DNA of 64,000 nt from Eledone cirrhosa (taxonomy: Eukaryota): positions 58,776,001 to 58,840,000 of the forward strand of contig OZ024748.1 of the NCBI GenBank assembly GCA_964016885.1, given 5' to 3'. The notes under the pieces are model-generated. The model made no database searches and had not been told where the DNA came from. It saw only the letters and a program-made list of their open reading frames with translations. Position 1 is the first letter of the stretch; every line of letters starts with the position of its first letter. The position numbers and the translations under genes are program-made. Positions 5,385 through 40,399 of the stretch are shown here, piece by piece.

Positions 5385-5429
<45 letters not shown>

Positions 5430-5460
5430 TTTATATATATATATATATATATATATACAG

Positions 5461-5495
<35 letters not shown>

Positions 5496-5574
5496 TTTAT
5501 ATATATATATATATATATATATACAGATTTATATATATATATATATATATATACAGATTTATATATATAAATAT

Positions 5575-5645
<71 letters not shown>

Positions 5646-5784
5646 TTTATATATATATATATACAGATTTATATATATATATATACAGATTTATATATAT
5701 ATATATACAGATTTATATATATATATATATATACAGATTTATATATATATATATACAGATTTATATATATATATATATATACAG

Positions 5785-5831
<47 letters not shown>

Positions 5832-5969
5832 TTTATATATATATATAAACAGATTTATATATATATATATAAACAGATTTATATATATATATATATACAG
5901 ATTTATGTATATATATATTTATATATATATATATATACAGATTTATGTATATATATATATTTACAGATT

Positions 5970-6005
<36 letters not shown>

Positions 6006-6142
6006 TTTATATATATATATATATATATATATACAGATTTATGTATATATATATATATATACAGATTTATGTATATATATATATATACAGATTTATGTAT
6101 ATATATATATATACAGATTTATGTATATATATATATATATAC

Positions 6143-6179
<37 letters not shown>

Positions 6180-6311
6180 TTTATGTATATATATATATAT
6201 ATATATATACAGATTTATGTATATATATATATATATATATACAGATTTATGTATATATATATATATATACAGATTTATGTATATATATATATATATATAT
6301 ACAGATTTATG

Positions 6312-6365
<54 letters not shown>

Positions 6366-6459
6366 TTTGTATGTATATATATATATATACAGATTTATGT
6401 ATGTATATATATATATATATACAGATTTATGTATGTATATATATATATATACAGATTTG

Positions 6460-6494
<35 letters not shown>

Positions 6495-6711
6495 ACATAC
6501 AGTCAAAAACACACACATGCACACATACATATATATATACACATACACATATATATATATATGTGTATGTATATGTATATATATATGTGTGTATGTATGT
6601 ATGTGTATATATATATATGTGTATGCGTAAATATATGTATGTGTATTTATGTATATATGCAATAATACATATATACATACATATACACACACACTTTATA
6701 TATATATATAT
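5385..6711. repeat. Compound (TA)n satellite with acagattt anchors
   Basis: Direct reading. Confidence 0.95.
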
Positions 6712-6741
6712 AATAAATGTAATCTGAGTTTTTCGAATATT

Positions 6742-7170
6742 AATAATTGTTTCTACTTTTGGTACAAGGCCAGCAAATACACAGTGGATTACTGGTATTT
6801 TATTTTATTGATCCCGTAAGGATGGAAGGCAAAGTTAATCTCGGCGGGATTTGAACTCAGAATGGTAAATCTATGCGTCAAACCATGGCGTCCGACTCTC
6901 TACCGATACTGCCAATCCCCCGACTGCCAATCCAGAACTGCAGTTCTGTTCGCATGCCAACATAAGAGCAAGAATGAAGTGTTCATTCTGATGACATGGC
7001 TATAAAATTGAGGCTTGTTTGCAAAATTGCAAACGAATCGAATGTTATTATTAATGTTCAAATCCCGCCGAGGTTTACTTTGCCTTTCATCCTTACGGGG
7101 TCGATAAAATAAAGTACCAGTAATGCACTGGGTAATTGCTGGCCTTGTGACTAAAGTAGAAACAATTATT
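6742..7170. mobile_element. Dominant SINE: full copy 6742-6920(-) and 5'-truncated copy 7056-7170(+)
   Basis: The + copy has TSD attattaat (7047-7055 / 7165-7173) and is absent from the sister repeat at 7600. Confidence 0.85.
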
Positions 7171-7458
7171 AATATTCGAAAAACTCGATTACATTTATTG
7201 CATTCAGCCATGTAGAGCGAAATTTTCTTTTGCTTTTGTTTTTTGAATTTGGCAAAGCCGACCATTTATCGCTCGTATACAGGAAACTGACTGGCCAGTC
7301 TGCTGATATGCAAATCTGGCTGATCAGTGGATCGGCTAATATGCAGATCTGACTGATCAGCCAGTCTGCTAATATGCAAATCAGGCCGATCAGTCACTGT
7401 GAATTTTGAAAATAGCATATATTTTCACTAGCTCTGACAGTTTGGCAGGTGAACAGTT

Positions 7459-7506
7459 AGCTGTACTGATGAAGGGTGATACCCAGAAACATTAGTGTCT
7501 GCAGTT
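7459..7506 (+). ncRNA. Type-I hammerhead ribozyme (family A)
   Basis: agctgta-CTGATGA-a-gggt(gat)accc-a-GAAA-cat(ta)gtg-TC|tgcagtt. 7-bp stem I, 4-bp stem II, near-palindromic stem III, GUC cleavage triplet ending at 7499. Confidence 0.85.
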
Positions 7507-7666
7507 CTGTTCGCATGCCAACATAAGAGCAAGAAGAAGGGTTCATTCTACTGACATGGCTATAAAATTGAGGCTTGTTTGCAAAATTGCAAATGAATCG
7601 AATGTTATTATTATTCGAAAAACTCAGATTACATTTAGTGTATTCAGCCATGTAGAGCGAAATTTT

Positions 7667-7723
<57 letters not shown>

Positions 7724-8229
7724 TTATATATAACTAGATTTTCCAAAGGCGAAAATTATAAAATATCAATACAATTTGATAAATTTTGAAAAATAAAAAT
7801 ACGACTAGTTGGTAGATTTGAAACGTTAAAAATGAAAGAAAAAAGAGAAAGAAAGGAAATGAAAAAATAAATAAATAAGCGTCAGTGATGTTGAGATTTC
7901 TCTATTAACTATAACGTTAAGAAATCGATTATTAGGTGTATAAAAGTGAAAAATGAGATATTATATCGGTGAATTTTCTCTTTAATATAGGAATAACACT
8001 TTAAGTTAAAATTTTATAAAATGACATGTAACTAGCTTTGCTTTTTTTTTCGATCTTACTATAATTTCTTGAATATAATACAATATAATATAATATAAAA
8101 TAGTTGAAAATAATTCGGGAATAAAATCCCTTGAGGCGGAAAAAGTAAATAATCGCTGGTGTGACAGGTACCTCACATCTGCCTATATTCCGGAATGCTC
8201 TCTGATTTAACTCACGTCAACTCCGATAG

Positions 8230-39977: not shown

Positions 39978-40399
39978 AAATATGTATGGCAGAGTGAATC
40001 CTAAGGCTGTGTCCTACTAATGTTACGCTAAATATGTATGGGGGAGTGTATCCTAAGGCTGTGTCCTACTAATGTTACGCTAAATATGTATGGTGGAGTG
40101 AATCCTAAGGTTGTGTCCTACAAATGTTACGCTAAATATGTACGGTGGAGTGAATCCTAAGGTTGTGTCCTACTAATGTTACGCTAAATATGTATGGCGG
40201 AGTGTATCCTAAGGCTGTGTCCTACAAATGTTACGCTAAATATGTATGGCGGAGTGTATCCTAAGGCTGTGTCCTACAAATGTTATGCTAAATATGTATG
40301 GCGGAGTGTATCCAAAGGCTGTGTCCTACAAATGTTATGCTAAATATGTATGGCGGAGTGTATCCTAAGGCTGTGTCCTACAAATGTTACGCTAAATAT
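39978..40399. repeat. 52-bp minisatellite, 8 units
   Basis: Unit aaatatgtatggcggagtgtatcctaaggctgtgtcctacaaatgttacgct starts at 39978, 40030, 40082 ... 40342. No spacers. Confidence 0.95.

What the first reader, a model, noticed from the sequence alone, without database searches (positions are those of the whole stretch)
6712..7672. Family A: repeat boundary and fold-back centre coincide with the ribozyme cleavage site
Seen: the hammerhead predicts cleavage GTC|TGCAGTTCTG after 7499. The upstream direct repeat begins at 6938 with ctgcagttctg, at that same position, and there folds back as cagaactg|cagttctg, with a remnant of the inverted arm at 6712-6745. Monomer length is about 443 nt after removing the SINE. 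Inference: the template RNA 5' end was made by self-cleavage, and reverse transcription ran about 1.4 units (circular or tandem template) and snapped back at the cleaved end.
Basis: partly seen in the sequence, partly recalled or inferred. Interest (0 to 1): 0.75.

Follow-up and report, generated by a model that had tools for sequence, protein, structure and literature searches.

The report
Retrozyme ends record ribozyme cutting
This is one of well over a thousand copies of a 446-base non-coding jumping repeat with a predicted self-cutting RNA motif; across 151 copies its ends pile up five-fold just after the predicted cut, which likely records cutting in living cells, while the mirror-image arm was likely made by a second, separately primed copy rather than by the first copy folding back.

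Summary
Observation confirmed, with corrections. The locus is a head-to-head insertion of a 446-nt hammerhead repeat (non-LTR retrozyme) with Penelope-type architecture: (TA)n target, inverted arm, ~30-nt tail on one arm. The upstream unit starts at the predicted cut; the palindrome centre is 2 nt further on (TG|CA). But 120 of 149 arms read through the cut, and exact-site excess replicated only weakly. Snap-back cannot make the long inverted arm: in 26 of 67 two-arm loci neither arm lies inside the other, so two cDNAs were primed; snap-back fits only the 10-27-nt stub. Arms with two ribozymes stop at a ceiling (+341..+371, 13 of 23; none of 30 passes +242), which points to a linear, partly cleaved two-ribozyme transcript rather than a rolling circle. 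No RNA data, no cleavage assay, partner element unidentified. The scan has noted like patterns in other retrozyme families, in this genome too.

The parts
5387..6711 (.). left (AT)n target microsatellite
   Evidence: 75 of 86 family insertions have (TA)n on at least one side against 8-10% background
6712..6745 (-). 3' remnant of the inverted (short) arm, unit positions +109..+144; ends at the family's fixed short-arm site
6746..6923 (-). near-full-length SINE inserted at unit position +109 of the inverted arm; unit positions +11..+108 are missing on its 5' side; tRNA-derived origin is recalled, ARAGORN finds no tRNA
6924..6932 (-). 9-nt duplicate of the SINE head
   Evidence: sequence
6933..6948 (.). 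exact 16-nt palindrome, centre 6940|6941 (TG|CA): 10-nt inverted stub (+1..+10) joined head-to-head to the forward arm over the shared TGCA
6939..7055 (+). upstream unit, +1..+117; its first base is the first base after the predicted cut
7056..7164 (+). 5'-truncated SINE at +109/+117 with a 9-nt duplication (7047-7055 / 7165-7173)
7165..7499 (+). rest of the upstream unit (+109..+446)
7286..7401 (+). three 33-nt repeats with octamer-like motifs (7308, 7341 variant, 7374) and an initiator-like TCACT at 7394; inferred promoter and start site (motif names recalled)
7451..7512 (+). type I hammerhead motif, predicted cut 7499|7500; A.A mismatch at the base of stem II, 3-bp stem III; a competing fold pairs the core with loop III
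7500..7639 (+). downstream partial unit +1..+144
7640..7672 (+). ~32-nt tail present on this arm only (long-arm priming site at about +175)
7673..7732 (.). right (TA)n target microsatellite

Best explanation
The locus is a two-armed, head-to-head insertion of a 446-nt hammerhead retrozyme, likely written into a (TA)n tract by a Penelope-type enzyme that primed two cDNAs on a likely linear, partly self-cleaved RNA, and this copy's long arm likely ran off an RNA end made by the ribozyme. Steps: (1, inferred) a source copy is transcribed from about +340 of an upstream unit, through two ribozymes, to beyond +175 (about 730 nt). (2, inferred from end statistics) each ribozyme cuts only some molecules; a competing fold is 6.5 kcal/mol more stable than the active one. 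(3, inferred from fixed ends and from PMC11167929) the enzyme cuts both target strands and starts one cDNA at about +175 and one at about +143/144, which gives the one-sided tail. (4, shown as a pattern) each cDNA stops at random, at a cut site, or at the transcript start. (5, inferred) the two cDNA 3' ends are joined by a few matching bases after losing 0-20 nt; an end at +1 carries self-complementary TGCA, which gives zero-spacer TG|CA palindromes, often with a 10-27-nt fold-back stub before a jump. Here the long arm passed the downstream ribozyme and stopped at the upstream cut (1.4 units); two SINEs came later. An occasional circle or end-to-end step is still needed to regenerate source copies.
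For: End pile-up with a sharp upstream edge: sample 1 (86 loci) 0..+11 = 23-25 vs 4.1-4.4 expected, best 12-nt window of the unit, 0 of 3000 simulations as extreme; sample 2 (65 loci, other contigs) 14 vs 2.9; pooled 37 vs 7.1, while -12..-1 is 7 vs 6.2. 15 independent TG|CA palindromes vs 1 and 1. Stops at both cuts: 29 of 149 and 7 of 18; the second far above background, p 1e-5. Read-through junctions unscarred in 49 of 52. Two primed arms: 26 of 67 loci with neither arm inside the other; short arms end at +143/144 in 39 of 72; inverted arm in 66 of 86 and 51 of 65 loci. (TA)n target 75 of 86. Ceiling: second-pass ends at +341..+371 13 of 23 vs first-pass 6 of 97 (Fisher 2e-7); a prediction noted beforehand held in 12 new loci (3 of 6 in +338..+356, p 0.003); none of 30 passes +242. 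A stronger hairpin of the unit shows no pile-up on its 3' strand (10 vs 9.4). Genome holds intact RT + GIY-YIG ORFs; one locus fuses the family's tail region straight to such an ORF (L052).
Against: No RNA or cleavage data; Rfam does not call the ribozyme. The exact-site excess (0..+3) is strong in sample 1 (12 vs 1.3) but not significant in sample 2 (2 vs 0.9, p 0.22); the excess runs on to +23 (26 vs 8.3), which is also the 3' strand of the extended helix I. A quasi-palindrome at +6..+27 favours junctions at +9/+21 and inflated raw counts (corrected). One arm of 982 nt (L197) and two of 811-827 nt pass the ceiling. First-pass ends show no stop at +341, so single-ribozyme transcripts must be rare templates, which is unexplained. 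Units share subfamily variants (+25: 18 of 22; +86: 35 of 36), which needs a monomer step at some generation. Inverted arms disagree at such sites in 12 of 59 and 8 of 93 pairs, so they are not always from one RNA. 11 of 15 palindromic loci have a stub and jump or a stub only, which could be later deletions. No partner pLTR found in 50 GIY-YIG loci.
Confidence: 0.6

Rival explanations
1. Circular monomer template (published retrozyme model): the enzyme copies round a ligated 446-nt circle; stops at the cut come from opened circles or linear monomers, and the second round is limited by displacement of the first cDNA.
For: Unscarred read-through in 49 of 52 junctions; units homogeneous, no unit-specific alleles; arms up to 2.2 units though no three-ribozyme array was seen; monomer folds far better than shuffles, z -7.6; A>G variants shared between tandem units slightly more than other changes (11 of 118 vs 31 of 890, p 0.006). 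PMC7229834 shows circles in mussel, coral, axolotl.
Against: A closed circle has no end at the second cut, yet 7 of 18 arms stop there; +341..+371 is a stop only in the second pass, with none in +311..+340. The A>G signal is post hoc, includes an artefact-prone locus and a subfamily haplotype, and there is no strand bias overall (ratio 0.92).
Confidence: 0.22
2. One reading: a single cDNA ran to the cleaved end, folded back and copied itself to make the inverted arm.
For: 11 of 15 independent palindromic loci have only 10-27 nt of mirror image before a jump or the microsatellite; 32 of 67 short arms lie inside the long arm; junction pairs such as +9/+21-25 fit a cDNA hairpin. PMC3846280 reads junction palindromes of Penelope as self-priming.
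Against: 26 of 67 loci cannot be made this way; short arms end at a fixed site; a zero-spacer TG|CA fold needs a 1-2 bp stem with a 2-nt loop (inference from the sequence).
Confidence: 0.1
3. Structure, not cleavage: the enzyme stalls in the 22-nt 3' strand of extended helix I of uncut RNA, and local palindromes (0..+5, +6..+27) favour joining there.
For: Excess spans 0..+23, the length of that strand; natural palindromes lie there; PMC11167929 found cleavage dispensable in vitro and no RNA reads ending at the cut for an anole element.
Against: Excess is highest next to the cut and not at helix entry (6.4x at 0..+3, 3.1x at +12..+23, 1.4x at +24..+35); the more stable 33-mer hairpin gives no excess on its 3' side; longer natural palindromes and matched TGCA sites give few symmetric junctions.
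Confidence: 0.08

Closest known systems
Metazoan non-LTR retrozymes (Cervera and de la Pena 2020, PMC7229834: passages and Discussion read; review PMC7761336: passages; Li, Clavereau, Pollet preprint 10.64898/2026.07.22.740005: parts 1-3 of 5)
   Same: Non-coding unit of a few hundred nt with one type I hammerhead, low GC, highly self-paired, over a thousand copies, co-occurring with Penelope-like elements; a mismatch at the base of stem II is described for axolotl HHR_Amex2.
   Different: Unit slightly longer (446 vs 150-450/170-400); here almost all copies are dispersed 0.2-1.9-unit two-armed insertions, not arrays; the parts read describe no inverted arms, tails or end mapping; the review says retrozymes seem to lack promoters and assumes circular templates, whereas ends here suggest a start site and a linear precursor.
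EN+ Penelope-like elements, Neptune-type insertion structure (Craig et al. 2021, PMC8557442: passages; Arkhipova et al. 2013, PMC3846280: passages)
   Same: Partial tandem, inverted 5'-truncated copy, 30-40-nt tail on one end, microsatellite target, palindromes at the inverted junction.
   Different: No ORF; those passages do not tie the junction palindrome to the ribozyme cut, and PMC3846280 invokes self-priming on an antisense template.
Poseidon of Anolis (PAc) in vitro (Frangieh et al. 2024, PMC11167929: parts 1-2 of 4)
   Same: Both target strands cut and extended; two internal start sites that bound the tail; uncut RNA is the main template.
   Different: No reads or products ending at the ribozyme cut were found there; here a fifth to two-fifths of arms stop at it.
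Newt satellite 2 (seen only as a passage and reference in PMC2220036; primary paper not held)
   Same: Hammerhead repeat with an internal snRNA-type promoter.
   Different: Promoter here is only inferred from end positions and recalled motifs.

Membership tests
Non-LTR retrozyme | Type I hammerhead core and three helices in each unit | tested here: met
   Motif and pairings read; CUGAUGA in 37 of 41, full core in 30 of 41 aligned copies; Rfam no hit; no covariation available in so young a family
Non-LTR retrozyme | Short non-coding unit in tandem copies, no LTR/PBS/PPT | tested here: met
   446-nt unit; 32 two-ribozyme tandems, no three-ribozyme array among them; ORF absence judged from the sequence, not by a dedicated search
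Non-LTR retrozyme | Self-cleavage of the RNA | not testable with these tools
   Only indirect: end pile-up at the predicted cut
Non-LTR retrozyme | Expression as circular monomers | not testable with these tools
   No RNA run available; genomic signs mixed
Element mobilised by an EN+ Penelope-like element | Inverted 5'-truncated copy at the 5' side | tested here: met
   66 of 86 and 51 of 65 loci
Element mobilised by an EN+ Penelope-like element | 30-40-nt tail on one end only | tested here: met
   Ends at about +175 and +143/144; the '+148' class is an alignment overrun into TA
Element mobilised by an EN+ Penelope-like element | Microsatellite target (Neptune/Naiad type) | tested here: met
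   75 of 86 vs 238 of 2875 and 266 of 2666 background windows
Element mobilised by an EN+ Penelope-like element | Sequence shared with the pLTR of an autonomous partner | tested here: inconclusive
   None in 50 GIY-YIG loci out of 10,596 candidates; one direct fusion to an ORF (L052)
Autonomous Penelope-like element | RT plus GIY-YIG ORF inside the element | tested here: not met
   Insertions consist of the repeat unit only; tblastn hits lie outside the arms

The most novel reading that the evidence does not exclude
This retrozyme spreads mainly from a linear, promoter-driven two-ribozyme transcript, not from an RNA circle: its genomic copies carry three hard stops (transcript start, upstream cut, downstream cut) that amount to a fossil read-out of in vivo hammerhead cleavage (roughly 15-35% per site) during Penelope-driven double priming, with circles needed only rarely to regenerate source copies.
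Probability: 0.4. Interest if true: 0.7.

Novelty: new member of a known kind. Interest (0 to 1): 0.5.

Why it matters
What hammerheads do in Penelope-like elements and retrozymes is open: the one in vitro study found cleavage dispensable and no ends at the cut, and the circular-template model for animal retrozymes has been proposed but, in the parts read, not tested on insertion ends. Here insertion ends give a count of how often each ribozyme was cut in the template, show that both arms are primed separately, and make a sharp, cheap prediction about RNA species (about 730, 620 and 175+ nt linear forms versus a 446-nt circle). The element itself is an ordinary member of a known class, and the scan has met similar patterns in other families.

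Tried and rejected
Rfam scans: whole window dominated by microsatellite matches, 221-nt scan gave no hammerhead. Sequencing runs: no RNA holder listed; laying contigs of two runs gave no information on ends. Partner search: no homology to 50 GIY-YIG loci apart from two neighbouring family copies; 3' ends of several Penelope families share no clear sequence with the unit. SINE as part of the template: rejected, breakpoints and truncations differ between arms and loci. Unit-specific alleles: none. RNA-editing scars: no A>G strand bias in 203 loci; tandem sharing inconclusive. A cap-derived extra G at +341..+355 ends: not seen by eye. '+148' end class: artefact. The constrained fold energy used a mis-registered outer helix and was redone. 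Raw counts double-counted junctions in the +6..+27 quasi-palindrome; one search corrects this, though it mis-moved two true ends out of the window (L075, L245; one search gives 42 vs 7.0 with only the clear corrections). Two papers were not held (Terminons; newt satellite 2 promoter), and supplements were not read; they may bear on prior description of end mapping. Literature searches for a prior report; none of the listings or passages seen reports end mapping relative to the cut for a retrozyme, but most subscription papers are not covered.

Full report
Numbering: +1 is the first base after the predicted cut (window 7500; 6939 in the upstream unit); C17 is 0. The window lies on contig C8 of a 3.0-Gb animal genome. 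That it is a cephalopod is recalled from the SINE and microsatellites and from other notes of the scan, not shown by a call.

Observation. The type I hammerhead motif is present at 7451-7512 with C17 at 7499; 37 of 41 aligned copies keep CUGAUGA and 30 of 41 the full core. Rfam does not call it. The active fold scores -13.9 kcal/mol against -20.4 for a fold that pairs the core with loop III. The direct repeat starts at 6938/6939 and the 16-nt palindrome at 6933-6948 is exact, but its centre is TG|CA, 2 nt after the cut, inside a natural 6-nt palindrome. The inverted arm is 6712-6745, then a near-full SINE, then a 10-nt stub; a second, truncated SINE sits at the same unit position in the forward arm. 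The two SINEs are 89% alike and closer to other SINEs of the window, so they came separately. Unit length is 443 here and 446 in the majority of 32 full units, median identity 97%. An exact ribozyme 25-mer occurs 1,524 times in the genome.

Samples. Sample 1: the first 100 of 630 matches to a tail 23-mer, all on C1; 90 loci held, 4 dropped as overlaps or duplicates, 2 listed places not included, 86 used. Sample 2: from the first 100 of 190 matches to a tail-plus-TA 28-mer, those on C2-C4 up to 160.8 Mb, 60 fetched plus 5 already held; the 28 on C1 and the last 5 were left out. Neither anchor selects on 5' ends. Sample 3: all 32 matches to a two-ribozyme pattern, 30 independent.

Architecture. 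66 of 86 and 51 of 65 loci have a head-to-head inverted arm. One arm ends at about +175, the other mostly at +143/144 (39 of 72 short ends; 31 at +136..+141, 2 at +148). (TA)n lies beside 75 of 86 insertions against 8-10% of background windows. Partial tandem, inverted copy, one-sided 30-40-nt tail and microsatellite target are the features given for EN+ Penelope-like elements (PMC8557442). The genome holds intact RT + GIY-YIG ORFs with a cysteine linker of the kind that paper assigns to Neptune. No pLTR homologous to the unit was found in 50 such loci; in L052 the unit's +84..+162 runs straight into such an ORF, one case only.

Counting 5' ends against bases at risk, 0..+11 is the best 12-nt window of the unit in sample 1 (25 vs 4.4; 0 of 3000 simulations). 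After correcting junctions in the +6..+27 quasi-palindrome: sample 1 23 vs 4.1, sample 2 14 vs 2.9, pooled 37 vs 7.1 of 280 ends; -12..-1 is 7 vs 6.2; +12..+23 26 vs 8.3; +24..+35 13 vs 9.1. The narrow window 0..+3 is 12 vs 1.3 in sample 1 but 2 vs 0.9 (p 0.22) in sample 2. So the robust result is a step at the cut that decays over about 25 nt, as expected of a hard end trimmed during joining, not a single-base peak. The exact palindrome occurs 18 times (control 0); 16 are this family, 15 independent, against 1 and 1 for TGCA-centred palindromes at +82 and +90, where more arms are at risk though the arms are less conserved. Cleavage sets a minority of ends: 29 of 149 primed arms stop at the first cut, 7 of 18 at the second, none reaches a third. 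The window copy is a second-cut stop. The more stable 33-mer hairpin shows no excess on its 3' side (10 vs 9.4, 10 vs 8.7) but some on its 5' side (24 vs 12.7).

Snap-back. In 26 of 67 simple two-arm loci each arm has at least 15 nt absent from the other, so neither can be a copy of the other; in 32 the short arm lies inside the long one. With the fixed short-arm end this calls for two primed cDNAs, as shown in vitro for an anole element that cuts and extends both strands from two internal sites (PMC11167929). Arms of one locus agree at subfamily sites more than arms of different loci (+25: 47 of 59 vs 51%; +86: 85 of 93 vs 62%; +14 and +42 little or no excess). Of the 15 palindromic loci, 4 have two continuous arms, 8 (the window among them) have a 10-27-nt stub and then a jump, and 3 have a 13-26-nt stub running into microsatellite. 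A brief fold-back at the cleaved end before joining explains the stubs; later deletion in a long palindrome is the alternative. PMC3846280 noted such junction palindromes without relating them to a ribozyme.

Circle or tandem. Read-through junctions are unscarred in 49 of 52. The cluster was seen in 18 loci, written down and found again in 12 new ones (3 of 6 in +338..+356). It lies just after an initiator-like TCAGT/TCACT and three 33-nt repeats with octamer-like motifs (names recalled); newt satellite 2 is cited as having an snRNA-type promoter (PMC2220036), while a review says retrozymes seem to lack promoters (PMC7761336). I read this as a transcript start, hence a linear template of about 730 nt with two partly cleaved ribozymes. 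Against: three arms in samples 1-2 pass the ceiling (811, 827, 982 nt), there is no first-pass stop at +341, and homogeneous units need a monomer step at some time. The editing test was inconclusive.

Comparison and verdict. It works like, and on the testable features is, a metazoan non-LTR retrozyme (PMC7229834; preprint) mobilised by a Penelope-like element; cleavage and circularity are untested. The searches listed under Tried and rejected showed no paper that maps retrozyme insertion ends to the cut. Earlier notes of this scan report like patterns in other families, some agreeing and some not; they are unreviewed and were not counted as support. New member of a known kind; interest 0.5 for the mechanistic read-out.

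Noticed in passing
window 6746-6923 and 7056-7164; unit position +109 in L048, L066, L075, L076, L132, L134 and others: SINE landing hot spot: 24 of 86 and 13 of 65 insertions carry a SINE at the same ATT-rich site, in the same orientation in all but one seen (L108), with varied truncations and duplications, sometimes two in a row.
   Followed up: partly
L052:558-1361: Unit +84..+162 fused without microsatellite to the C-terminal part of a Penelope-type ORF (family of L185/L155); possible template switch naming the partner, or a later deletion.
   Followed up: partly
L165, L169, L170, L173, L178 (360-420 nt after the ORF): A Penelope-type family with a minimal hammerhead-like motif whose 3' ends lie about 125-180 nt after the predicted cut, the same geometry as this family though the sequence differs.
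   Followed up: no
L005:1784-2026: The 33-nt repeat is expanded to about seven copies in one insertion.
   Followed up: no
L035/L036 (436 nt apart): The same palindromic junction occurs twice in tandem, so a whole two-armed insertion was duplicated.
   Followed up: no
L032, L041: An unrelated repeat also carries the 16-nt palindrome.
   Followed up: no
L266-L268 (C3, about 17.75 Mb): Three near-identical two-ribozyme copies within 7 kb, part of a larger tandem duplication.
   Followed up: no
window 19501, 37164, 49418, 56870, 56980 (+) and 19312, 21141, 23917, 51890, 57811 (-): Further CTGATGA motifs in the window, not checked for hammerhead folds.
   Followed up: no
window 39978-40399: 52-nt minisatellite, 8 copies at 95%.
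   Followed up: no
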